From IMG/VR virus record IMGVR_UViG_3300028388_001808, positions 1 through 64,000 of that record: a stretch of 64,000 nt of DNA, one strand, 5' to 3'. The DNA comes from a virus. The position numbers and the translations under genes are program-made. The notes beneath the pieces were generated by a model. That model saw only the letters and a list, made by a program, of their open reading frames with translations, searched no databases and was not told the DNA's origin. This document shows, in pieces, positions 3,001 through 63,854 of the stretch (positions are counted from its first letter, which is position 1; each line of letters starts with the position of its first letter).

Positions 3001-6000
3001 TCTACTTTCTGCAAGTCTTTGTCGGATAGCATCTTCTTCCTCTTCAGACATTTCTCTGGAAAATAGCATATCGTCTCCTGCATCTTCCATGTCTTCGTAT
3101 CCATACTCATTATCAAGTTCATTCAAGATATCTTCTGCACTTTTTTCTTCTTCTGGTGTCTCTGTAGCGGCTTCTTCTTCAGTGGTTGTTCCTACTTCAG
3201 GAGCTACCTCTGTTACAGGTGCAGTAGTTTCTTCAGAATCTTCTTCCTGGATTATACCAACTTCAGGAGTACCGATACGTACTACAGGCTGTATGTACGT
3301 AACATACTTAGTACCTTCTGATGTCGGTACAGAGAAAGAAGGAATGTTGGTGAGTGTGCGAGATTTTACATGATCGACATAGTTCTGATCAGCAGTTATT
3401 GTGCCGTCTTCTTTTATGATAGGCACTACAGGATTTGTAGTAGCATGAGACAGTTGATAGTTGTAGCTTTTTTCTAGTAGAGACTGTGCTAGAAACTGAA
3501 GATTCGATCTCAAGTTTTGGATGTCTTCTTCAGTAGCGTTCTGCATAGCATTTGGGTGGATATGATAGAAGTCTTTTCCATCCGGAGTAAGTCTGTTCAC
3601 CTGTCCAAATACAACAGAACCGTGTTGAACACCTATAAAAGACATAGATGCAGGAATTACACTTGATCTTCCTGAAGTATCTTCTATGTGCGTACCGTGC
3701 TGCTCTGCTTGTGCTAATGCAGATACAAAGACTTGTCTGTAATCACCACCTCTCGCAATACCTTTTTGCGTATTTACGAATAGCGAAATATACTTTTCAA
3801 TACCTTCAGCAGAAGAAATATCTATTCTGGTAGCGTTTTGTATATCCTGAATTATTCTCGCATTCTCATCCGTACCTGGCATAATGTACGCTTCTACAGC
3901 TTTTGCTATAGATAGAGCAGCTTCCTCACTGACTTTACCATACTTCACAGGAAGCATGATATATTTAGGTTCTCCTTCATTTGCAGGTATAGGACGTAAT
4001 TCGAACATCTTACCTACACTGTCCGAAGCAATCGAATCGACATACTCCTTACCGCCAAGTACACTGTCAGTGGGAATAACTGAAGTGGAAGTCTCAGCCA
4101 ATTCTCCCTGAGCAGAAATTGCCACAACTTTAGTGTTCGGATCAGGATTTGCTACATTCAGCGGAACTGCTTTAGTCAGTCTACCGGATTTACCAATAGA
4201 GGTCTTTTCTATTGTAGTCTGCAATCCTTCTTCTTGCGCAAGGATTGCAGCTCTTGCATTCAGCAAGGACTCTCTTTGCTTACTTATTGTTTCATGTTGT
4301 GACTCTGCTATGTTGTGCGTATCTACCCAATTTACTTCATGTAAGTAACCATAGACCACACCTGTATCAGCATCTACAATTTCTATTGGTACTCTTGCTA
4401 CATACTCATAAGTACCGGGTTGCAGGTTTAATTCTTTGAACGGTACTTTCTCAATAGTATCTGCTTGATGATCTACTGTTACAGGTATCTCAGAAGGATC
4501 AGCTACTTTTCTGAGTATTACATTTTTCTTCCAACCCACAGGGTTTAGAAGAAATTGCAATGCACCAGGGTTATTCCTGTTTACTTCTATTGGATTTCCT
4601 TCATTCTGTATAGTCTGTCTTTCTACTTCCTGTATGTTTTCAGATTCGATAACAATCTTATCGTATTCGGCAGAAAGGTAAGCTACTTTGTTAAATGCTA
4701 TTTCTATAGCATCATTAACTATTCTGATGTTACCGTCTTCGTCATACTCAAGAACCTGATCAAGAGTAACTATTTTCTTCTCTTCCTTCTCTTCGTCTTC
4801 AGTAGTTTCCTTAATCTCTTCATAGGTAGGAGGAAGAGCTTGAGAGTTTATAGTATTTATAATCTCTTCAAGTCGAGACAAACTTTCTGTAGACTCAGGA
4901 GAACGATGTTTGTAAAGCAACGCCAGCGTTATAGCATAACGCTGAAAAGGTTGCATACCTACGCTATCAATAAACGATCTGGCAACCTCCTCAAATGTCG
5001 GTTCTCTTCCTATCCTGTTTGCTACAGCGTCAATAGCCTTGGAAAAAAACGTAAGGTTTTGGGTAGTGAAGTCTGTACTGACAGGGGCAAATAGATCATC
5101 GTTGTTAACGATGACCACATCACTCTGCTGGTTCATGGAATCCATGAAATTGCCCCATGCCTCAGCTTCTTCAGAAGAGGCGTTATCCAGATTTTCCTGT
5201 TCGCTTGAAACAGCTTCGCTTTGTGATGCTATAGGGTCTTCCGTAGAATCCATCTGAGCGGCTACCGTAGCTTCATATTCCTGACGTAGTTGTTCTTCGC
5301 TTACTTCAGATTCTGTAGGTGTGGCAGGTTCTGCTGGTGGGGCAGCAGGTGCTTCAGCTGTAGGAGTAGGAGCCGGAGTAGGAACAGGTGTTTCCGTTTC
5401 TTCTCTTTTTTGCTGTTCTTGCTGTTCTTTTCTGGCTACGTTACGTTTTGTGAGCTTCCTCATTTTATCGCGCAGCGTGTCAATCAGAGTAGCCTTTGTT
5501 TTCTTGATAGCTTCTTTCCTAGCGTTCTCTGTAGTGTCTACGATACTATCAATTACACTCTTGTCAAGAATACCATCATACTTAGCTTTAAGTTTTGCAA
5601 CCTTGTTAGCATAAACAGAATCGTCTCTTTCTGTACGCAGCTTGTCAAGACTGGTATACAAGTCCATCTGCTTACCTAAAGTCTCCTGAACTTCAGAAGA
5701 AGTAAGAGAGTGGTATTCTTTAGTATTCGCGTTAATGACATCCTGTAAAACTGCCTTTTGTTGCTGTAGAGCCATTAGTTGCGCTACTTCAGGAATAGCA
5801 GATGCTTTGTTTATAAACTCATCATAAGCTTTAGCTTCTGGAGTACCTTCTGCATATCCAGAATCTCCTACCAGATTATCAAGATGGTAGCGAAGACTAA
5901 CGTCTTCAGAAAGTTTGGTTGAGAGCGTACCAGCTTGTTCAGCTTCATTGATAGCAGTCCTTGCTTCGTCGATAAGTTCGTTCTGTGCCGTATTGATTTT

Positions 6001-50230: not shown

Positions 50231-51124
50231 CAAATAACAGACCTACTAGGTGGGTCTGTTACTCTCTCATAGATGCCCTGACAGACGGCTTCTATACTGT
50301 GAGAGAGTATCCGAACCAAATAGTCTGTTAAAAGATAGCAGTAACAAGGATCATAACCTTGAGGCTTTGTTATGTGCCTTAGCCGACCGGAGAGCTAAAC
50401 ATAACCATCACAAGTGATGTCTTGGTCTAAACCTTGCTGCTGTCTTTTACAAGTCACCAATACCTCTATATCATGAGATTACGATACTAGCATATTACTT
50501 AGCGAAAAAAAAGATCGGACAGCGGACAACAGAGGAGTCTTTAAGATGGGCTTCTCTGTTGTTGTCTTTAATGTTCCATTACTTCATGCTATTGGAGGTG
50601 TGAGTCTTTTGACGACATACGACCTCCAGTAGTAGAGAAGTGAAAGCCCTTAAATGGGATAACTACAGGTATAAGCAACCTGTAGGATGGCAGCAATCCA
50701 GCTTTAGGATTGCCTTACTGTAGCGAATAAAGTTACAGTAAGTAGCTACCACATATCGGAAATGTTATGGTAGCATTGTGCGGGAAATCTCTATGAAGAA
50801 CTAGCTTAATGGCAGAGCTGCCATAGTAATTTTGCTATGGTGTAACATTCTTTTTGAAGCATCCCTACAGATGTGGATATAGAATGACTGGTGTGTAGGC
50901 ACTTGGTTTTGGTTCGAATCCAAAGTTCTTCACTACTAAGCGTACAATCTGGATAAAACCGGATGTTAGCCAGTACGCTTCCTACCTCATTAGGTAGGTA
51001 TATCAAGTACTTGCGCATTGCCCGTTTAATACGGCCACAGTGCAAGGCTAAAAGGAGTAAAGGGAAACTCCAGTTATGGCTGTTTTTACCCAACACCACT
51101 ATGGGTTGATGTTAGTGGTAATAA

Positions 51125-55422: not shown

Positions 55423-55583
55423 CAGTCTCTTCAACAAGGTGAGAATCCTTGTCAAGCTTACATTAACAAGATGGTGTAAGCTGGGGCATCTATCTGGTCT
55501 TTGAACCAGTAGTTGTGCGGAATAAAAAAGAGTTGTACATTGCGCCTCTTTACATCTTTATTTTTAAACCTAGTTGAGTAACC

Positions 55584-56006: not shown

Positions 56007-56594
56007 GTGAAGAATGACACAATTTTACTTATCATTCTGTTCATCTTTTCACTACCGATAAAGGGTTTTTCACCCTGCCAGTCCAATTTGGGTTTGACTG
56101 ACAGGTTGGAAAAACAAGAGGTCTGTCAGCCTACTAGGCTGGACAGTCTTCTTCAATTGTCCCTTTATCTGCTGAAAGACATGGAAGGACTCCGATTGGA
56201 GTCGTATAAATGTCCCGGTGGGATGTGGACAATTGGCTATGGTCATACCAAAGAGGTCAAAAGAGGTATGATCATTACAGAAGAACAGGCTGACAGTCTG
56301 TTGCTTCAAGACCTCACAGAAGCTTTGAACCATGTTGATCGTTTGTCGAACAACTTGGAAGAAGGCGAGAGATACGCTTTAGCATTGTTTCTCTTCAATG
56401 TCGGACCGTACCGACTGAAGGGAACACGTACTCTGAGACATATTCAGGAAGGAAATGAACCTCCATTCCATCTTTGGGTACACGCTAAAGGAAAGAGGCT
56501 CAGAGGATTAACTGAAAGACGACAGATCGAAACTGAATTTTTCAGAAATTGGTCTGGACTATTTCAGAAAACCTTTGTACATTTGGATTCATAA
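56007..56594 (+). CDS. GH24 lysozyme with N-terminal hydrophobic signal/SAR segment
   Basis: EGLRLESYKCPGGMWTIGYGHT (E-x8-C-x5-T triad), FNVG and GLTERRQIE. Confidence 0.85.
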   Translation: MKNDTILLIILFIFSLPIKGFSPCQSNLGLTDRLEKQEVCQPTRLDSLLQLSLYLLKDMEGLRLESYKCPGGMWTIGYGHTKEVKRGMIITEEQADSLLLQDLTEALNHVDRLSNNLEEGERYALALFLFNVGPYRLKGTRTLRHIQEGNEPPFHLWVHAKGKRLRGLTERRQIETEFFRNWSGLFQKTFVHLDS

Positions 56595-57401: not shown

Positions 57402-57470
57402 ATGTCCCTCTTAGAACCTAAAACTTTAGACGTTTTTTTGGTTAAACTGGCTAAGTTGTCAGAGGGACAT
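57402..57470 (+). ncRNA. Handle RNA unit 1 (Y-RNA-like; inner hairpin with a TTTTGGT loop resembling a Gln anticodon loop)
   Basis: ATGTCCCTCT-TAGAAC ... GTC-AGAGGGACAT, 10-bp closing stem. Confidence 0.65.
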
Positions 57471-57480
57471 TTTAAAAAGC

Positions 57481-57572
57481 AAGATACAGCGCAACGTGAT
57501 GGCAAGAGCCTTTCTTTTAGACGAAAGGGAAGCGCAAGGCTCTTTAGGGTAAATCGTGGCCCTCTGTATCTT
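57481..57572 (+). ncRNA. Structured RNA element without the handle motif
   Basis: AAGATACAG/CTGTATCTT closing stem enclosing AAGAGCCTT/AAGGCTCTT and AGGGT/GCCCT arms. Confidence 0.45.
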
Positions 57573-57577
57573 TTTTA

Positions 57578-57696
57578 GGGGAGGTTGAAATGTTGGTCTT
57601 AGAGACAGAGAGGTGAATCCTCTCTTAGAACTAAACTAAAACTTTCAAGTACACTCATAATGTATCCTAACGTAGGTTCGATTCCTACCCTCCCCA
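57578..57696 (+). ncRNA. Handle RNA unit 2: tRNA(CAT) with the handle inserted in its D-loop
   Basis: Acceptor GGGGAGG/CCTCCCC-A; D stem GAAA/TTTC around a 52-nt loop containing GAC-AGAGAGG-TGAAT-CCTCTCT-TAGAAC; anticodon arm GTACA-CTCATAA-TGTAT; T arm GTAGG-TTCGATT-CCTAC. Confidence 0.75.
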
Positions 57697-57700
57697 CAAA

Positions 57701-57830
57701 AGTCCACTTAGAACTGTAACATAGTTACAAAATTTGCAGGTTCAAATCCTGCTATAAGCGAAAGCTTATATGGCGGAAATGGTATACGCACTTCACTTAA
57801 AATGAAGCATTTTAAAACAGACAGTGGACT
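57701..57830 (+). ncRNA. Handle RNA unit 3: circularly permuted tRNA-Leu(TAA)
   Basis: AGTCCACT-TAGAAC, small hairpin, T arm GCAGG-TTCAAAT-CCTGC, acceptor TATAAGC-GAAA-GCTTATA, D arm GCG..CGC, anticodon arm CTTCA-CTTAAAA-TGAAG, then GAC-AGTGGACT. Confidence 0.8.
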
Positions 57831-57899
57831 AAGACAAACGTAGGCGGAAGTCTAGCCCGTAGAAGGTAACTACAAATCAAATCCCTTCCGCTGAACGTA

Positions 57900-57948
57900 G
57901 GAACCCCCTTAGTATCATGTACGCATGGTGTCTTAGTCAGGGGGTTCC
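57900..57948 (+). ncRNA. Handle RNA unit 4 (minimal, variant motif TAGTAT)
   Basis: GGAACCCCCT-TAGTAT ... GTC-AGGGGGTTCC with an inner ATCATG-TACG-CATGGT hairpin. Confidence 0.55.
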
Positions 57949-57958
57949 AAAGAAAAAA

Positions 57959-58059
57959 CGTCTCGCTTAGAACAAACAAAAGTTATAGGTTCGAGTCCTA
58001 TATTTTCTCGATTTTGAGGAAATTAGCTTAATTGGTTAGAGCAAATAGGCAGCGAGACG
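57959..58059 (+). ncRNA. Handle RNA unit 5: YrlA-like architecture (T arm, loop-closed acceptor stem, D arm; handle replaces the anticodon arm)
   Basis: CGTCTCGCT-TAGAAC ... ATAGG-TTCGAGT-CCTAT, ATTTTCTC-GATTTT-GAGGAAAT, GCTT-AATTGGTTA-GAGC ... GGC-AGCGAGACG. Confidence 0.8.
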
Positions 58060-58203
58060 ACAAAAAGAGGGGCCAGCCTCCCAAATACCGATTCAAACAG
58101 GTAAGTGCTGGTCCCTCCTACTTCGATCAAAGATTAGGGGGAGCCGATACGGTTGAACAAATCAAAAGGGGATTTTTTGATTCCGGCTCCTCCGACCTTA
58201 TAA

Positions 58204-58273
58204 GGTCCACTTAGAACTAAAACTAAAAACACCAGACTTGTAAATCCGGCAACGTTTTAGCAGTCAGTGGACC
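58204..58273 (+). ncRNA. Handle RNA unit 6: isolated anticodon-arm-like hairpin (CTTGTAAA loop)
   Basis: GGTCCACT-TAGAAC ... CCAGA-CTTGTAAA-TCCGG ... GTC-AGTGGACC. Confidence 0.65.
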
Positions 58274-58290
58274 AAACTTCTATCATAACC

Positions 58291-58396
58291 GTCTCTCTTA
58301 GAACCAAAAAAACTTTGTATAGCTCATTGTAGAGCATCAAATTTAGGTTTTGAAGGTTGCTGGGTCAAACCAGCTACAAAAGTTTGACAGAGAGAC
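58291..58396 (+). ncRNA. Handle RNA unit 7: unpermuted tRNA-like body (TAG anticodon) extended from its acceptor stem into the handle
   Basis: GTCTCTCT-TAGAAC ... TTTGTA/TACAAA acceptor, GCTC/GAGC D stem, TCAAA-TTTAGGT-TTTGA, GCTGG-GTCAAA-CCAGC ... GAC-AGAGAGAC. Confidence 0.75.
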
Positions 58397-58426
58397 AAGG
58401 GAGTGCTTCGGCACTCCTTATTTTTT
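58397..58426 (+). terminator. Intrinsic terminator closing the RNA array
   Basis: GGAGTGC-TTCG-GCACTCC plus TTATTTTTT. Confidence 0.75.
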
Positions 58427-58437
58427 GTTTAACCGCT

Positions 58438-58511
58438 GGTCCCTTAGTTCAGTTGGTTAGAACCCCTGACTCATAATCAGGAAGTCGCAAGTTCGAGTCT
58501 TGCAGGGACCA
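58438..58511 (+). tRNA. tRNA(CAT), probably Ile2 (lysidine type) rather than Met
   Basis: Canonical cloverleaf GGTCCCT/AGGGACC-A; anticodon arm CCTGA-CTCATAA-TCAGG; body resembles Ile2 tRNAs. Confidence 0.85.
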
Positions 58512-58541
58512 CTACGAGGAGCAGCATCTCAAATCACAATT

Positions 58542-58700
58542 ATGAAAGACACAATAAAAACAAAAAAAAGATTTGCATTCTTTCCAGTTAAACTTAGTGA
58601 CGGGAGAATAATCTTTTGGAAAAAATACAAACTAACAGTAACAAAATCCTGGCATCCATCAGGGTTGACGGTAACAAAGAAGTATGAATGGATTCCGTAG
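58542..58700 (+). CDS. Small hypothetical protein (RFAFFPVKLSDGRIIFW)
   Basis: Likely start 58542; stop codon lies inside the 5' end of tRNA-Arg. Confidence 0.5.
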   Translation: MKDTIKTKKRFAFFPVKLSDGRIIFWKKYKLTVTKSWHPSGLTVTKKYEWIP

Positions 58701-59018: not shown

Positions 59019-59027
59019 GTTATAATT

Positions 59028-59108
59028 GCCCGGATGGTGGAATTGGTAGACGCGCTGGTCTTAGGAACCAGTGTTCTAGCGACGTGTGGGTTCGAGTCCC
59101 ACCGGGCG
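59028..59108 (+). tRNA. tRNA-Leu(TAG) with a shortened 3' acceptor strand
   Basis: GCCCGGA-TG-GTGG..., anticodon arm CTGGT-CTTAGGA-ACCAG, long variable arm, GTGGG-TTCGAGT-CCCAC then only CGGGC (2 nt short). Confidence 0.7.
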
Positions 59109-59142
59109 TACAATATCTTTCAACTTAAAAACAACAGACACC

Positions 59143-59432: not shown

Positions 59433-61187
59433 ATGAAGAAAAGTACAGAGATACTGCTTCCTACAGGAGTAGATCAGAAAAAGCTGGCTGCGATGAGTGT
59501 AACGATCAACACCATCAAAAAATCAGCAAAAGAACCCAACGAGCAGTTGGTCTATGACCAGTTGACAAGACTTATTGGGGGGACTACTGATGAAGAGAAG
59601 ACTTTACTGCTCCGCAACCTGTTCCAGATCATAGATCGTGAATCCGGAAAAGAGCTGGGTTATATCTCTCGAATCATTATCCGGTGGATAGAACACTACA
59701 TGCCGGAATGGTTCTATGCGAACCTTTGGACAGTACCGTATTTCGTCAAGTGGGAGTACCTCTGGTACAACCAGATTCGGACTACCAAAAAGTCCAGCCA
59801 CAAGCGACCTGCAAAGGTTGAAAAGACAGAACTGTCTGATTTCGACTATGAAGCAATCGCCAAGTTTGTTGCGGATTACATCCGTAGCAAAGAGGACAAA
59901 GGTCTTCTGGCGAAGTGGTTGCCGAAATACCGTAAAACAAAGCGGTGGCGTAAGAAGGTTTTAAAGGACGGTACAGTGAAACGCTGGACTACGAATCTGC
60001 TGCCTTCCACACAGTCGGTTGTGAATGTAAACAACCACTTCATCAACCTCATCTGTGAGGAAATGGGGTGGACTGTTTCTGATTACGCCAACTGGAGAAA
60101 GGAAAATCAGCGCACCATCGAACAACAGGTGTCAAAAGGAGCTGCCTTTGACGCTTTGCCGGAAGCTACAATCAAGGACCATTTCGACAAAATGGCTACC
60201 CATGCCAGATTCAGAGTGGAGAAATCCATGAAGAATACGGATAAGTGGAAAAGAGCTTCCCAGGTATTCAACGCCTGGAAAGAAGATGAAACACGAGTAG
60301 CAGAGAAAATCCGTACCGCCCTGTCGAAAGGCGATGAAGAAGGAGCAAAACTCCTTCGAAAAGCTTCCAAGGCGAAAACCGGAGGTGGACTTCAGACCTA
60401 TGATCTGCTTTATAAGCTAATGAAAGAGAATGACATTTCCACAGCAAACAACCTGCATAGCAACCTTATGGTTGACTTAATGGATAAACTAGACGGAGAC
60501 GTCTATACCATTATCGACTGGTCGGGAAGTATGGAGAGCTATAACCAATCAGATATAGCGATGATTGACATTGCAAATACGCTGGCCGTGACATTCTCTA
60601 CGATGCACAAAAACCCCATGTACAAAAACGAGTTCATGGTATTTGGTAAAGATGCAGTCGTCGTAGGAACCACTTCCAAATACAGCAAGACTGGTAAATT
60701 CCAGGTTGCCAAAGTGGAAGAAAGGAAAAAAGAACCGACAATCGATGCCAAATGGACGTTTGAGCAGAACCTTCGCAGGATGAGAGAGGCCCGCAGAGGT
60801 ATGGATCAGTGGAGTTTGGTGTCTGCAACCAACATGGGTGCTTGCTTCGAGCATTTCATCCAGTTGGTGAAAGACGGACACTGCACGCCGGAGGAACTAC
60901 CTGTTGCTCTTCTTTTCATTACCGACGAAGAGAACAACATGGGTAAACACCCTACAGAGTGCATGGCTGATGCCGCACAGATTGGCTGGTATCCTCTGGT
61001 CATCTGGTGGGGACTCCGCAGTAACCGGATGTCTAGCATCCGCTGCGAGAATTTCTTGCCTGTAACAGGCTTTGCGGAAAACGTACTGAGTGAAGTACTG
61101 ACTTTCTTGCGTAACGGAGTTATTCTTCCCGGAGCGGAACTGCTGGCGGTGAACGATAATCCCCGCTATAAGGATATTAAATACTGA
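59433..61187 (+). CDS. Ro60/TROVE-like helical ring plus vWA protein (DUF2828-like)
   Basis: N-terminal helical region with LFQIIDR..G, NLWTVPYFVKW, LLAKWLP and TIEQ; vWA MIDAS DWSGS, TN, FITD, IWWGL and VTGF motifs in the order seen in TROVE/DUF2828 proteins. Confidence 0.8.
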   Translation: MKKSTEILLPTGVDQKKLAAMSVTINTIKKSAKEPNEQLVYDQLTRLIGGTTDEEKTLLLRNLFQIIDRESGKELGYISRIIIRWIEHYMPEWFYANLWTVPYFVKWEYLWYNQIRTTKKSSHKRPAKVEKTELSDFDYEAIAKFVADYIRSKEDKGLLAKWLPKYRKTKRWRKKVLKDGTVKRWTTNLLPSTQSVVNVNNHFINLICEEMGWTVSDYANWRKENQRTIEQQVSKGAAFDALPEATIKDHFDKMATHARFRVEKSMKNTDKWKRASQVFNAWKEDETRVAEKIRTALSKGDEEGAKLLRKASKAKTGGGLQTYDLLYKLMKENDISTANNLHSNLMVDLMDKLDGDVYTIIDWSGSMESYNQSDIAMIDIANTLAVTFSTMHKNPMYKNEFMVFGKDAVVVGTTSKYSKTGKFQVAKVEERKKEPTIDAKWTFEQNLRRMREARRGMDQWSLVSATNMGACFEHFIQLVKDGHCTPEELPVALLFITDEENNMGKHPTECMADAAQIGWYPLVIWWGLRSNRMSSIRCENFLPVTGFAENVLSEVLTFLRNGVILPGAELLAVNDNPRYKDIKY

Positions 61188-61643: not shown

Positions 61644-61960
61644 AGAGGAAAGCAAGAAAAGAACACATCTGCGACACCTGCGGAGAAGTCATACAAAAAG
61701 GAGAAGTGTACGAATATGACGAGCTTAGAGTACCTAGACTTGACGAACAAGACGTTCAGGTAGGAATAGAATACTTTAAGTTTAAGACATGTTGGCACTG
61801 CTTTGCTTTGTGTCACGAAAAACAAGAAGAGCATTACTTTGTAGATGAATACGTAACAGATGGCTTCGTATCCGGAAATAGAGTAATGTCACCTACAGGA
61901 AGGCAATATTGCGTAAAATGCGGAATGTATAAGGAGGATTATGATAATATTCATCACTAA
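61640..61960 (+). CDS. Zn-finger protein
   Basis: RKARKEHICDTCGEVIQKGEVY...CWHC...CVKCG. Confidence 0.65.
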   Translation: MKRKARKEHICDTCGEVIQKGEVYEYDELRVPRLDEQDVQVGIEYFKFKTCWHCFALCHEKQEEHYFVDEYVTDGFVSGNRVMSPTGRQYCVKCGMYKEDYDNIHH

Positions 61961-63854
61961 ACAACTCGGAATTTGGGATTCTAGCGAAATTCCAACAGTG
62001 AACTCTATAGAACCACTGTTACAGTTCATGAGAACTGAACAGGTCTATGGAGTGGATACAGAGACTACCGGAGCTTGGAATATGAGGAATGACCTTACTT
62101 CTCTTCAGATTATGAGGAATGACCTCATTTCTCTTCAGGTAGGGAATGAGGAAGTACAGTATGTCGTAGATTGGCAGTCTATGTCTACGGCAGAACGTAT
62201 GGAAATACTGAATGAAATGGCTAAACCAAGAGCCACGAAGGTACTACAGAATGCGAAGTTTGATCTGAAATTCTTTATGCAGTATGGCGTGTATCTCCTG
62301 AACATCTACGATGTGATGGTAGCAGAGTGCTTGATCTATGCAGGAAGAAAACAGGAGAAGGGATTCTTCGCACTGGATGCGATTGCAGCACGCTACTCGG
62401 ATATGCGGCTTGACAAGTCAGTGCGTGGGAAGATTCACATTGAAGGGCTAACTGGCAGGGTAATAAGATATGGTGCGGCTGACGTAGAATGCCTTATCCC
62501 AATAATGCGGGGAACGCATCTGAAGCTTCAAAGCCTCCACATGGCGAAAGAGGACCATCAAGACCCTCATACGGTACTGGGAATCGAAAATCGTTCTTGT
62601 CTGGCCTTTGCAATGATGGAATTCAACGGGTTAAAACTCGATCTGGTCAAATGGGAACAGATCAAGGAAGAATTGAAGGAATCTATCATACGTATAGAAA
62701 AAGAACTGGACAAAATCGTAGTCGAGTCAGACCTATTTACAGGAATGGGAATGCGTCAACTTGATCTTTTCTCGGACACAGTAGAGACGAGAATAAACTG
62801 GGGTAGCTGGCAACAGAAATTACCACTGTTGAAACAGATTAACCCAGAGATACAAGATACCTCAGAACGATCTCTGTCAGTTCATAAGAACGAGCATCCA
62901 ATCATTCCAAAGTTGATAGAGTATGCAAAAACTACAAAGCTGTACAACGGATTCGCTAAGACAATGCCAAAGATGATAAATCCTGTAACGAATAGGATAC
63001 ATACATCCTTTTGGCAGAACCAAAGTACAGGACGTGTCTCTACAGATAGTCCTAATTTGCAGAACATCCCAGCAAGAAGTGAAATGGGAGGTAGAATGAG
63101 AGAATGTTTCATTCACGAAGAAGGTTGGAAGATAGTAGGCGGAGATTACAGTGGTTGCGAATTACGGGTAATGGCTGAATTCAGTCAAGACCCTCTATGG
63201 TTGAAAGTCTTCAATGAAGACGGAGACTTACACAGCGAGTTGTGTGCAAAGACATTCAACATACCAATAAGCGACGTTAAAACAATGTCTCCTTATGGTG
63301 TGAAATACAGAGACGTACAAAAGACCATAAACTTCGGTCTCGCGTACGGAATGTCAGAATATAAACTGGCAGACACGTTACAAATCAGCATAGAAGAGGC
63401 AAGAACTATCATTAACCAGTTCTTTGCCGTAGTGCCTACACTGAAAGCTTTCCTAAACAAGCTTGGAAGGTTTGCAGTAAGAAAAGGCTTCTCAAGGACT
63501 CCTCCACCATACGGTAGGATTCGCTGGTTTGATAAGTACAAAGGTAGCCCCAAACAGAGGGGTGAGGTGGAAAGGGAAGGTAAGAATCATCCTATCCAGG
63601 GAGCAAACGCAGATATGGTTAAACTCGCACTAGCCAACTGCTACGAATACATTGTAAATCACGGTCTTACAGATCATGTAAAGTTAATGCACACTATACA
63701 TGACGAGATACAGACTGAGGCAAGGGAAGACATTGCAGAGATATGGGCTGTAGAACTACAGAACATAATGGTGGAAGCCGCCTCTGTTATTATCAAATCA
63801 ATTCCTATGGTTGTCGATGTGAAAATCGGAGACAACTGGGGAGAAACCAAATAA
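61941..63854 (+). CDS. polA: Family A DNA polymerase with 3'-5' exonuclease domain
   Basis: ExoI DTETTG, ExoII NAKFD, ExoIII YGAAD; motif A DYSGCELR, motif B KTINFGLAYG, motif C IHDEI. Confidence 0.95.
   Translation: MIIFITKQLGIWDSSEIPTVNSIEPLLQFMRTEQVYGVDTETTGAWNMRNDLTSLQIMRNDLISLQVGNEEVQYVVDWQSMSTAERMEILNEMAKPRATKVLQNAKFDLKFFMQYGVYLLNIYDVMVAECLIYAGRKQEKGFFALDAIAARYSDMRLDKSVRGKIHIEGLTGRVIRYGAADVECLIPIMRGTHLKLQSLHMAKEDHQDPHTVLGIENRSCLAFAMMEFNGLKLDLVKWEQIKEELKESIIRIEKELDKIVVESDLFTGMGMRQLDLFSDTVETRINWGSWQQKLPLLKQINPEIQDTSERSLSVHKNEHPIIPKLIEYAKTTKLYNGFAKTMPKMINPVTNRIHTSFWQNQSTGRVSTDSPNLQNIPARSEMGGRMRECFIHEEGWKIVGGDYSGCELRVMAEFSQDPLWLKVFNEDGDLHSELCAKTFNIPISDVKTMSPYGVKYRDVQKTINFGLAYGMSEYKLADTLQISIEEARTIINQFFAVVPTLKAFLNKLGRFAVRKGFSRTPPPYGRIRWFDKYKGSPKQRGEVEREGKNHPIQGANADMVKLALANCYEYIVNHGLTDHVKLMHTIHDEIQTEAREDIAEIWAVELQNIMVEAASVIIKSIPMVVDVKIGDNWGETK
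62081..62140 (+). repeat. 30-bp in-frame tandem duplication in the polymerase exonuclease domain
   Basis: TATGAGGAATGACCTTACTTCTCTTCAGAT / TATGAGGAATGACCTCATTTCTCTTCAGGT. Confidence 0.9.

What the first reader, a model, noticed from the sequence alone, without database searches (positions are those of the whole stretch)
57578..57696. tRNA(CAT) with the handle inserted inside-out in its D-loop
A complete cloverleaf (7-bp acceptor, A73, CAT anticodon loop, TTCGATT T loop) has a D-loop expanded to 52 nt. Here the handle appears in reversed strand order, GAC-AGAGAGG-loop-CCTCTCT-TAGAAC, a circular permutation of the handle in the other units. This suggests the handle is a structural module independent of the RNA ends, not a promoter or DNA repeat. 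The acceptor end is free, so this unit could be aminoacylated while tethered to the Ro60-like protein (inference).
Basis: partly seen in the sequence, partly recalled or inferred. Interest (0 to 1): 0.85.

Follow-up and report, generated by a model that had tools for sequence, protein, structure and literature searches.

The report
tRNA-shaped partner RNA with internal handle
A crAss-like phage encodes a complete tRNA-shaped RNA whose D-loop holds, as a closed hairpin, the same short "handle" that closes five neighbouring small RNAs. These RNAs lie beside a gene for a Ro60-like protein, and the layout recurs in many related phages, so it is probably an undescribed tRNA-shaped form of a Y RNA and not an ordinary tRNA.

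Summary
Window 57578-57696 (+) is a full cloverleaf: 7-bp acceptor, A73, CUCAUAA anticodon loop, UUCGAUU T loop. It scores 34.1 bits against Rfam tRNA (cut-off 29). Its D-loop is 52 nt and contains GAC-AGAGAGG-UGAAU-CCUCUCU-UAGAAC.

Five neighbouring units (57402-58396) carry the same two-strand motif, but there the variable 8-10 bp helix is formed by the RNA ends. All six copies lie on one strand within 1 kb, against 0.4 expected in the whole 93.7-kb genome.

The 584-aa ORF downstream (59433-61187) has a vWA/MIDAS domain. Its best full-length fold matches are all Ro60, and it is homologous to phage DUF2828+DUF7788 proteins. Pfam TROVE does not hit it, and its N-terminal domain alone matches only generic helical repeats.

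Distant homologues of this gene in 8 viral and about 25 metagenomic contigs are preceded by the same UAGAA handle. Nineteen sequences there are free-acceptor tRNA-like RNAs with the hairpin handle, with compensatory changes. Their anticodon arms are not conserved.

Best reading (0.55): a gene-level circular permutation of a YrlA-type Y RNA that docks the Ro60-like protein. Binding and charging were not tested. This scan has noted the same kind of RNA on other phage DNA.

The parts
57578..57696 (+). tRNA-shaped RNA (unit 2): acceptor 57578-84/57689-95, A73 57696, D stem 57587-90/57643-46, anticodon arm 57649-65 (CAU 57656-58), 6-nt variable loop 57666-71, T arm 57672-88
   Evidence: Rfam tRNA 34.1 bits over the full model; fold z = -3.9; ARAGORN tRNA-Met(cat) once the D-loop is shortened; model R1, built only from relatives, hits it at 31.8 bits, E 0.0013
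57591..57642 (+). 52-nt D-loop. Its 5' end UGUUGG keeps a G18G19-like GG; the insert follows it
   Evidence: sequence read directly
57604..57631 (+). Inside-out handle: GAC, helix AGAGAGG/CCUCUCU closed by UGAAU, then UAGAAC
   Evidence: the 7-bp helix is in the minimum-free-energy and centroid folds
57599..57634 (+). Predicted second helix UUAG (57599-57602) with CUAA (57631-57634). It joins the handle's internal loop (AGAC / UAGAA) to the tRNA body
   Evidence: Thermodynamic prediction only; no comparative support
57402..57470 (+). Unit 1: end-closed handle (10-bp helix, UAGAAC, GUC) with a small hairpin cargo
57701..57830 (+). Unit 3: end-closed handle around a permuted tRNA-like body (T arm, acceptor-like hairpin sealed by GAAA, D-like arm, anticodon-like arm)
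   Evidence: weak Rfam tRNA hit at 57764-57846, 23.2 bits
57959..58059 (+). Unit 5: end-closed handle around a T arm, sealed hairpin and D arm (YrlA layout)
   Evidence: Partial Rfam YrlA hit at 57982-58042, 24.8 bits, below the cut-off of 69
58204..58273 (+). Unit 6: end-closed handle with an anticodon-arm-like hairpin. Its linker after UAGAAC is nearly identical to that of unit 2
58291..58396 (+). Unit 7: end-closed handle clamping a whole tRNA-like cloverleaf (58313-58382, UAG anticodon loop)
   Evidence: Rfam tRNA 51.1 bits
58398..58427 (+). Intrinsic-terminator-like hairpin plus U run that ends the RNA array
59433..61187 (+). 584-aa Ro60-like protein: helical-repeat N-terminal domain plus vWA domain with MIDAS residues D362, S364, S366, T466, D498. 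Presumed handle-binding partner
   Evidence: negative or inconclusive results

Best explanation
Unit 2 is a genuine small-RNA gene. It belongs to a conserved phage family of tRNA-shaped RNAs that carry the handle as an internal hairpin, whereas their neighbours form it with their ends.

The likely pathway:
1. The roughly 1-kb array (about 57.39-58.43 kb) is transcribed as one precursor.
2. The tRNA-like acceptor/T minihelix lets host RNase P and RNase Z (or exonucleases) cut the RNA out. The host CCA-adding enzyme can then complete its 3' end.
3. The handle projects from the variable part of the D-loop, after the GG that would contact the T loop, so the L-shape can still form.
4. The handle docks the Ro60-like protein encoded 1.7 kb downstream, as Y-RNA stems dock Ro60.

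The result would be a tRNA look-alike with a free acceptor end that carries the ring protein. It would be a gene-level circular permutation of a YrlA-type Y RNA. Its presumed role is to bring the ring protein and tRNA-binding factors together, or to serve as a bait for them.

Shown: the RNA architecture, its conservation and covariation, and its genomic linkage to the protein family. Inferred: processing, protein binding and biological role.
For: 1. Architecture.

2. The handle is non-random and strand-specific. There are six copies in 1 kb against 0.375 expected in the genome. All six CTTAGAAC are on the + strand.

3. Genome-specific details are shared between the hairpin copy and the end-closed copies. 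All have GNC before the helix and UAGAAC with a final C. Relatives use UAGAAU with AUU- or CAU-type opposite strands in both topologies. This fits one genome-specific partner.

4. The partner protein has Ro60-like architecture.

5. Linkage:
- All 8 viral loci with a roughly 30%-identical homologue lie in same-strand tRNA arrays. Seven of them have handle units upstream by the strict scan, 25 on the + strand and 0 on the - strand. The eighth, L159, has its hairpin handle just upstream of the gene.
- 24 PolA-related crAss-like loci have neither the gene nor clusters of handles.

6. The free-acceptor tRNA-like RNA with a hairpin handle recurs in 19 sequences from viral and metagenomic contigs. 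In several it lies 31-35 nt upstream of the gene's start codon.

7. Covariation in 9 relatives: 22 pairs, 13 with compensatory double changes, 89.9% of cells paired, 0 of 500 shuffles as good, and slid controls 42-62% paired.

8. A covariance model built without the window finds unit 2 (E 0.0013) and five further relatives, and nothing in 11 control loci.

9. Precedent: M. smegmatis YrlA is cut by RNase P in its acceptor-like stem and receives CCA while bound to Rsr (PMC4201824, section 8). Y RNAs are typically encoded upstream of Ro60 on the same strand (PMC4201824, section 5).
Against: - No experiment or RNA data show that the RNA is made, how it is processed, or what it binds.
- The protein is not matched by Pfam TROVE. 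Its N-terminal domain alone gives only generic helical-repeat matches.
- The handle motif CUUAGAAC differs from the published Ro60/Rsr motifs: GNCGAA(N)G (PMC4201824) and CGAA (PMC12135203).
- Rfam YrlA does not hit this unit.
- The D stem GAAA/UUUC and the second helix rest on energy and the tRNA model only. No close orthologue of this D-loop version was found. Relatives place the hairpin elsewhere: after an intact D arm, or in place of the D arm.
- Here the unit lies 1.7 kb from the gene, not directly upstream as in many relatives.
Confidence: 0.55

Rival explanations
1. It is a working tRNA (elongator Met, or Ile2 after lysidine modification) that tolerates a large D-loop expansion. The handle is a tag for stability, sorting or protection, and translation is the main function.
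For: The anticodon loop CUCAUAA is canonical, with A73, U8, a G18G19-like GG, a possible G15:C48 pair and a canonical T loop. ARAGORN calls tRNA-Met once the loop is shortened. The unit sits next to genuine phage tRNAs.
Against: - The phage already has a standard tRNA-Met(CAT) at 58438-58512.
- In the 18 related sequences the anticodon-like loops differ (UGA, UAC, UAU, AAU, 5-nt loops, C at position 37) and discriminators vary (A, G, U). Decoding is therefore not what conserves the family.
- Unit 2 departs from standard tRNA in several ways: U where A14 is expected, C where A21 is expected, two nucleotides between the D and anticodon stems, and a 6-nt variable loop.
Confidence: 0.15
2. The handle is real, but its partner is not the Ro60-like protein. 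It could be a processing or stability signal for a host RNase or another RNA-binding protein. The linkage to the gene would then reflect a shared operon inside tRNA clusters.
For: - Binding was not tested.
- The motif does not match published Ro60 sites (PMC4201824, PMC12135203).
- The gene family always lies in tRNA arrays, where many RNA elements cluster.
- The Klebsiella phage KP2025 homologue has no UAGAA handles nearby.
Against: - Handles track the gene closely. Seven of the 8 viral loci have them upstream by the strict scan and the eighth has its hairpin copy there. Most metagenomic loci with upstream DNA also have them, and related phages without the gene have none.
- A sequence-variable helix next to a fixed single-stranded motif, working in either topology, is the pattern of a protein-docking module and not of a cleavage site.
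Confidence: 0.2
3. It is a dead tRNA gene, disrupted when a repeat unit of the array recombined into its D-loop, and has no function of its own.
For: The 19 nt from CUUAGAAC through the A-rich linker in unit 2 are almost identical to the start of unit 6. This is compatible with recent recombination between units.
Against: - All four tRNA arms and the 7-bp handle helix are intact.
- The same overall design is kept in distant phages, with compensatory changes.
- Model R1 from relatives recognises the unit end to end.
Confidence: 0.06
4. The insert is an intron, removed to give a normal tRNA.
For: Only the size and position of the insert, which lies inside a loop and is flanked by a short helix.
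Against: - Bacterial tRNA introns are group I introns in the anticodon loop and are far larger (established knowledge).
- The predicted 4x5 internal loop is not a bulge-helix-bulge site.
- The genome has no RtcB-type ligase.
- The insert is the conserved, covarying part of the family.
Confidence: 0.03

Closest known systems
YrlA-type Y RNAs bound by bacterial and phage Ro60/Rsr (Rfam RF02553; Chen et al. 2014, PMC4201824). [quoted passage not shown]
   Same: - A small RNA encoded upstream of, and on the same strand as, a Ro60-type gene.
- Two modules: a protein-docking helix with a short conserved motif that contains GAA, and a tRNA-like part with T and D arms.
- Several different partner RNAs per locus.
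- Processed M. smegmatis YrlA also ends up with an open, CCA-tailed acceptor stem while on the protein.
   Different: - In YrlA the docking helix is made by the RNA's own 5' and 3' ends and the acceptor-like stem is sealed. Here the gene encodes the reverse: open acceptor ends and a sealed docking hairpin inside the D-loop.
- The motif is CUUAGAAC, not GNCGAA(N)G.
- Rfam YrlA does not hit this unit.
- The partner protein is not recognised by Pfam TROVE.
Thermus phage phiLo Ro60 with Yrl1 and Yrl2 (PMC12135203; PDB 9KOP, 9L5Y)
   Same: - A phage-encoded Ro60-type protein with partner RNAs just upstream of its gene.
- The motif lies in an internal bulge between two helices.
- These structures are among the best fold matches of the window's protein.
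   Different: - The phiLo protein is a recognisable TROVE protein, and its RNAs use a CGAA motif.
- Its RNAs are not described as tRNA-shaped or as having a free acceptor end.
- Sequence identity to the window's protein in the fold alignments is 11-13%.
Ordinary tRNA-Met / tRNA-Ile2 (Rfam RF00005)
   Same: Full cloverleaf above the Rfam cut-off, CAU anticodon loop, A73, canonical T loop, no encoded CCA (like the phage's three standard tRNAs).
   Different: - The D-loop is 52 nt against the usual 7-11 nt.
- Positions 14 and 21 are non-standard, there is an extra nucleotide at position 26, and the variable loop is 6 nt.
- Relatives do not conserve the anticodon arm.
tmRNA tRNA-like domain
   Same: A G-rich acceptor stem plus T arm frames a large non-tRNA insert, and the 3' end is free.
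   Different: There is no G3:U70 pair, no tag reading frame and no pseudoknot series. ARAGORN finds no tmRNA. A normal anticodon arm is present.
Phage DUF2828+DUF7788 proteins, annotated 'RNA-binding protein' or 'DUF2828 protein' in Klebsiella, Campylobacter and Staphylococcus phages
   Same: Homologous to the window's 584-aa protein (hhalign 99.6%, E 6e-25, 418 columns). The Klebsiella phage KP2025 gene also lies inside a tRNA array.
   Different: - Identity is only about 22%.
- The Pfam models DUF2828 and DUF7788 do not hit the window's protein directly.
- No UAGAA handles were seen beside the KP2025 gene.
- I found no published function for this family.

Membership tests
tRNA (RF00005) | Cloverleaf with 7-bp acceptor, D, anticodon and T arms, scoring above the Rfam cut-off | tested here: met
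   34.1 bits against a cut-off of 29, model positions 1-71; ARAGORN tRNA-Met(cat) after the loop is shortened
tRNA (RF00005) | D-loop of normal size, with A14 and A21 | tested here: not met
   The D-loop is 52 nt. Position 14 is U, and the base before the 3' D-stem strand is C
tRNA (RF00005) | Anticodon conserved among orthologues (a decoding constraint) | tested here: not met
   Anticodon-like loops differ in sequence and length among the 18 related sequences. No close orthologue of this copy was available.
tRNA (RF00005) | CCA addition and aminoacylation | not testable with these tools
   No CCA is encoded (the downstream sequence is CAAAAG). The three standard phage tRNAs lack it too.
YrlA / Y RNA (RF02553) | Encoded near a Ro60-type gene on the same strand | tested here: met
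   The Ro60-like ORF starts 1.7 kb downstream on the + strand. In relatives the equivalent RNA lies as close as 31-35 nt upstream of the gene.
YrlA / Y RNA (RF02553) | Docking helix formed by the 5' and 3' ends, with the GNCGAA(N)G motif on the 5' strand | tested here: not met
   The helix is an internal hairpin, 57607-57625. The motif is CUUAGAAC (motif definition from PMC4201824, section 6).
YrlA / Y RNA (RF02553) | tRNA-like module with T and D arms | tested here: met
YrlA / Y RNA (RF02553) | Match to the Rfam covariance model | tested here: not met
   No YrlA hit on 57578-57696 at E <= 10. Only unit 5 gives a partial hit of 24.8 bits against a cut-off of 69.
YrlA / Y RNA (RF02553) | Bound by the Ro60 protein | not testable with these tools
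   Inferred from co-occurrence only
Ro60 / TROVE proteins (for the partner ORF 59433-61187) | Pfam TROVE domain (PF05731) | tested here: not met
   No hit in the protein or in the six-frame genome at E <= 1
Ro60 / TROVE proteins (for the partner ORF 59433-61187) | C-terminal vWA domain with a MIDAS motif | tested here: met
   D362, S364, S366, T466 and D498 are invariant in 26 sequences. Pfam VWA hits 6 of 26 members. vWA structures give Z of about 11.
Ro60 / TROVE proteins (for the partner ORF 59433-61187) | Full-length fold like Ro60 (helical-repeat ring plus vWA) | tested here: met
   The 12 best Foldseek matches are all Ro60/Rsr or phiLo Ro60, E 2e-6 to 4e-4, about 600 columns. VIA gives Z 12.7-15.5 with 323-418 residues aligned across residues 18-583.
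Ro60 / TROVE proteins (for the partner ORF 59433-61187) | N-terminal domain alone recognisable as the TROVE ring | tested here: inconclusive
   The model of residues 1-356 (pLDDT 74) gives only generic helical-repeat matches, Z <= 8.6 and Foldseek E >= 0.07. Language-model neighbours are DUF2828 and TROVE clusters, scores 0.92-0.94.
DUF2828 + DUF7788 phage proteins | Profile-level homology over both domains | tested here: met
   hhalign gives 99.6%, E 5.8e-25, 418 columns against the KP2025 protein. That protein itself hits DUF2828 (1.7e-23), DUF7788 (1.5e-52) and, weakly, vWA_Ro60 (0.0014).
tRNA introns (group I, or archaeal bulge-helix-bulge) | Group I core, or two 3-nt bulges separated by a 4-bp helix | tested here: not met
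   The insert is about 44 nt with a 4x5 internal loop. No ribozyme family hits the unit.

The most novel reading that the evidence does not exclude
This copy, which unlike its relatives keeps a canonical CAU anticodon loop and A73, may really receive CCA and an amino acid while the Ro60-like ring sits on its D-loop handle. That would make it a chargeable tRNA physically coupled to an RNA-surveillance ring. Such a particle could take the ring to EF-Tu or ribosomes. It could also shield or bait a specific tRNA species in the contest with host anticodon nucleases.
Probability: 0.1. Interest if true: 0.85.

Novelty: new variant of a known kind. Interest (0 to 1): 0.62.

Why it matters
In every described Y RNA the Ro60-docking helix is made by the RNA's two ends. 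Here the docking module is a portable hairpin that has been built into different places of a tRNA frame: the D-loop in this phage, and after or in place of the D arm in relatives. The acceptor end stays free.

If the Ro60-like protein binds it, three things follow:
- The docking motif works independently of topology.
- Phages make tRNA-shaped particles that can still enter tRNA-processing pathways.
- A large, Pfam-invisible branch of Ro60-like proteins sitting in phage tRNA clusters gains a concrete, testable RNA ligand.

That would give a handle on the long-open question of what the tRNA mimicry of bacterial and phage Y RNAs is for.

Tried and rejected
- blastn of the array against GenBank phages found no match.
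- A single-protein search for the 584-aa ORF in viral contigs found no relative. The full 26-sequence alignment was too divergent to seed a scan.
- The pattern CTTAGAAC + T loop in viral contigs returned ordinary tRNAs whose D arm happens to contain TTAGAAC. L039 turned out to be coding sequence.
- 24 PolA-related crAss-like loci and 18 of their whole records have no handle clusters, with counts equal to the reversed-pattern control.
- A unit-2-specific pattern (handle, then CTCATAA, then T loop) in viral contigs gave no orthologue. Its one tRNA hit is a normal tRNA-Met.
The 94,463-bp contig that encodes the 58%-identical protein P0002 could therefore not be fetched.
- Sequencing runs: none was listed and no RNA holder was listed.
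- PDB sequence searches gave nothing significant; the best TROVE hit had E 0.12, at the MIDAS motif only.
- PHROGs gave no hit for the ORF.
- A fold search of the N-terminal domain alone returned only generic helical repeats.
- RtcB, the CCA-adding enzyme and the DUF2828 Pfam model are absent from the phage genome.
- No UAGAA handles lie beside the Klebsiella phage KP2025 homologue.
- Kink-turn and sarcin-ricin readings of the internal loop were considered by eye. I dropped them because the 2b-2n position would be A-C and the 57898-57950 variant lacks the GA.
- No conserved RNA-repair gene neighbours the homologues. ClpP, HNH, SPFH and DUF7873 genes were seen instead.
- Papers: I found none on TROVE in crAss-like phages or on DUF2828 function.

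Full report
**Setting.** The window is bases 1-64000 of a complete 93,733-bp phage genome with terminal repeats. The phage is crAss-like: it has the Crassvirus major capsid protein and tail ring protein 1. Between a lysozyme gene (56007-56594) and a family-A DNA polymerase gene (61941-63854) lies an ORF-poor stretch on the + strand. It holds three standard tRNAs: Met-CAT at 58438, Arg-TCT at 58691 and Leu-TAG at 59027. Upstream of them, from about 57.39 to 58.43 kb, is a dense set of structured RNAs that ends in a terminator-like hairpin at 58398-58427.

**The observation.**
- The 7-bp acceptor stem is GGGGAGG/CCUCCCC, followed by A73.
- The D stem is GAAA/UUUC and encloses a 52-nt D-loop.
- The anticodon arm is 5 bp with loop CUCAUAA. 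The T arm has loop UUCGAUU.
- Rfam's tRNA model matches end to end at 34.1 bits (cut-off 29) and places a 54-nt insertion in the D-loop.
- ARAGORN misses the element as it stands. It calls tRNA-Met(cat) with exactly these ends in 53 of 54 in-silico shortenings of the loop.
- The minimum-free-energy fold gives all four arms and the 7-bp helix AGAGAGG/CCUCUCU, with z = -3.9.
- The loop begins UGUUGG, so a G18G19-like pair is kept. The insert follows it, at the place where natural D-loops vary in length. This last point is my reading of the sequence, not a test.

**The handle.** Five other units have a variable 8-10 bp helix formed by their two ends: 57402-57470, 57701-57830, 57959-58059, 58204-58273 and 58291-58396.
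- The 5' strand of each helix ends in CU and is followed by UAGAAC. The 3' strand starts with AG and is preceded by GNC.
- In unit 2 the same two strands appear in the order GAC-helix-loop-helix-UAGAAC. The variable helix is therefore sealed, and the motif opens towards the tRNA body.
- The strict pattern occurs six times, all on the + strand within 1 kb, and nowhere else in the genome. Shuffles expect 0.375. All six CTTAGAAC lie there.
- The cargoes differ between units. They are a small hairpin, a permuted tRNA-like body with a sealed acceptor hairpin, a YrlA-like T arm/hairpin/D arm set (partial Rfam YrlA hit, 24.8 bits), an anticodon-arm-like hairpin, and a whole cloverleaf (Rfam tRNA 51.1 bits).

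**The neighbouring protein.** ORF 59433-61187 (584 aa) has no Pfam, PHROG or PDB sequence hit. The genome has no Pfam TROVE match.
- An exhaustive profile-free search found 59 relatives. Their alignment shows an invariant DxSxS...T...D MIDAS motif, and 6 of 26 members reach Pfam VWA.
- An AlphaFold model (pLDDT 80) has as its 12 best Foldseek matches only Ro60, Rsr and the Thermus phage phiLo Ro60, over about 600 columns.
- VIA-align gives Z 12.7-15.5 over residues 18-583. vWA-only matches give about 11.
- The N-terminal 356 residues modelled alone match only generic helical repeats. A TROVE ring as such is therefore not demonstrated.
- Independent links exist. tblastn finds the 'DUF2828' / 'RNA-binding protein' genes of Klebsiella, Campylobacter and Staphylococcus phages.
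- The KP2025 protein carries DUF2828+DUF7788 with a weak vWA_Ro60 hit, and its gene lies inside a tRNA array. hhalign joins the two families at 99.6% probability over 418 columns.
- Protein-language-model neighbours of the N-terminal part are DUF2828 and TROVE clusters.
- I therefore call the protein Ro60-like in architecture and a distant member of the DUF2828/vWA group. I do not call it a demonstrated TROVE protein.

**Comparative evidence.** Eight viral contigs (L155-L162) encode homologues about 30% identical.
- In every one the gene lies on the same strand as large tRNA arrays.
- In seven of them the strict scan finds units with helix-CU|UAGAA ... AG-helix upstream of the gene: 25 on the gene's strand and none on the other. 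The eighth, L159, carries its hairpin handle just upstream of the gene.
- Crass-like loci related through PolA lack the gene and lack such clusters.
- The free-acceptor, hairpin-handle design of unit 2 recurs. A metagenome scan added more cases, giving 19 sequences in all.
- Each of the 19 has a G-rich 7-bp acceptor stem, a canonical T arm, a free 3' end, and a 4-7 bp hairpin that abuts UAGAA(U/C/A).
- The hairpin sequence differs while pairing is kept: AGAGAGG/CCUCUCU, AGAAG/CUUCU, AGUGU/ACACU, AGUGGU/ACCACU, AGUGA/UCACU, UGAAAG/CUUUCA.
- For nine relatives with an intact D arm, RNAalifold predicts 22 pairs, 13 of them with compensatory changes. My count gives 89.9% of cells paired, with 0 of 500 shuffles as good and slid controls at 42-62%.
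- A covariance model from these nine, with the window excluded, finds unit 2 at 31.8 bits (E 0.0013) with the hairpin and UAGAA aligned. It also finds five further relatives and nothing in 11 control loci.
- In several relatives the RNA ends 31-35 nt before the gene's start codon.

**What differs between lineages.** The hairpin sits in the D-loop only here. Elsewhere it follows an intact D arm or replaces the D arm.
- Anticodon-like loops and discriminator bases vary among relatives. Decoding or charging is therefore unlikely to be the conserved function.
- Within each genome the hairpin copy shares the genome's own version of the motif with the end-closed copies. Here that is GNC and a final C; elsewhere it is U-rich or CAU opposite strands and a final U. 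This fits one genome-specific partner.

**Mechanism.** The best reading is a Y-RNA-like particle.
- The handle docks the Ro60-like protein.
- The acceptor/T minihelix makes the RNA a substrate for host RNase P, RNase Z and the CCA-adding enzyme. The phage encodes no CCA-adding enzyme and no RtcB.
- The closest precedent is M. smegmatis YrlA. It is cut by RNase P in its acceptor-like stem and receives CCA while bound to Rsr (PMC4201824, section 8). The phage gene encodes that end state directly, by circular permutation.
- Published Ro60 motifs (GNCGAA(N)G and CGAA; PMC4201824, PMC12135203) share only the GAA with CUUAGAAC.
- Binding, processing and role are all inferred.

**Rivals.**
- A working tRNA with a tolerated insert (0.15).
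- A handle that serves another partner or acts as a processing signal (0.2).
- A dead tRNA gene (0.06).
- An intron (0.03).

**Novelty.** I found no paper that describes Ro60-type proteins or such RNAs in crAss-like phages, or a function for DUF2828.
- Earlier AI notes of this scan report the same protein-handle pairing in many other phages.
- They also report tRNA frames with a permuted handle in the anticodon arm. Those are leads, not evidence.
- My own comparative results agree with them and add the D-loop position.

**Verdict.** This is a new variant of a known kind: a Y RNA with a tRNA-like module.

Noticed in passing
window 50795-50932 (+): A second 138-nt tRNA-like element. It has acceptor stem GAAGAAC/GUUCUUC plus A, a normal D arm and a T arm, with a long insert containing AUUCU...hairpin...UAGAAU. 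It is the best hit of model R1 (41.7 bits, E 2.5e-5) and is not called by ARAGORN or Rfam. It lies in an ORF-poor stretch at about 50.2-51.7 kb.
   Followed up: partly
window 58291-58396 and 57578-57696, against 59027-59109 and 58438-58512: The two handle-bearing cloverleaves carry the same anticodons (UAG and CAU) as two of the phage's three standard tRNAs, Leu-TAG and Met-CAT. The handle RNAs may mimic the phage's own tRNAs.
   Followed up: no
window 57480-57575 and 58067-58195: Three further long-range stems inside the same transcription unit, without the UAGAAC motif: AAGAUACAG/CUGUAUCUU, GAGGGGCCAGC/GCUGGUCCCUC and GGAGCCG/CGGCUCC. They may be other structured RNAs or processing spacers.
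   Followed up: no
window 57898-57950: A 10-bp hairpin (GGAACCCCCU/AGGGGGUUCC, z = -5.3) with variant motifs UUAGUAUC on the 5' side and CUUAGUC on the 3' side. It is a degenerate or differently arranged handle.
   Followed up: partly
window 57624-57642 against 58210-58230: The stretch from CUUAGAAC through the A-rich linker (UAAACUAAAAC) in unit 2 is almost identical to the start of unit 6. This suggests recent exchange between units.
   Followed up: no
L158 4500-4775: In one relative, a structured RNA of about 280 nt lies between a handle unit and the Ro60-like gene. It ends in a T-arm-like hairpin followed by ...GGGCACCA, which resembles a tmRNA or tRNA 3' end. ARAGORN does not call it.
   Followed up: no
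L218 (Klebsiella phage KP2025, PP919962.1) 3536-5062: The DUF2828 gene lies inside a tRNA array of 16 annotated tRNA genes. An annotated 432-nt 'tRNA-Arg' overlaps the start of the gene, which is probably an annotation artefact or a split or odd tRNA.
   Followed up: no
window 55430-55481 (+): A partial hatchet-ribozyme-like match: 27.6 bits against a cut-off of 51, with only the two terminal helices matched. It is probably chance.
   Followed up: no
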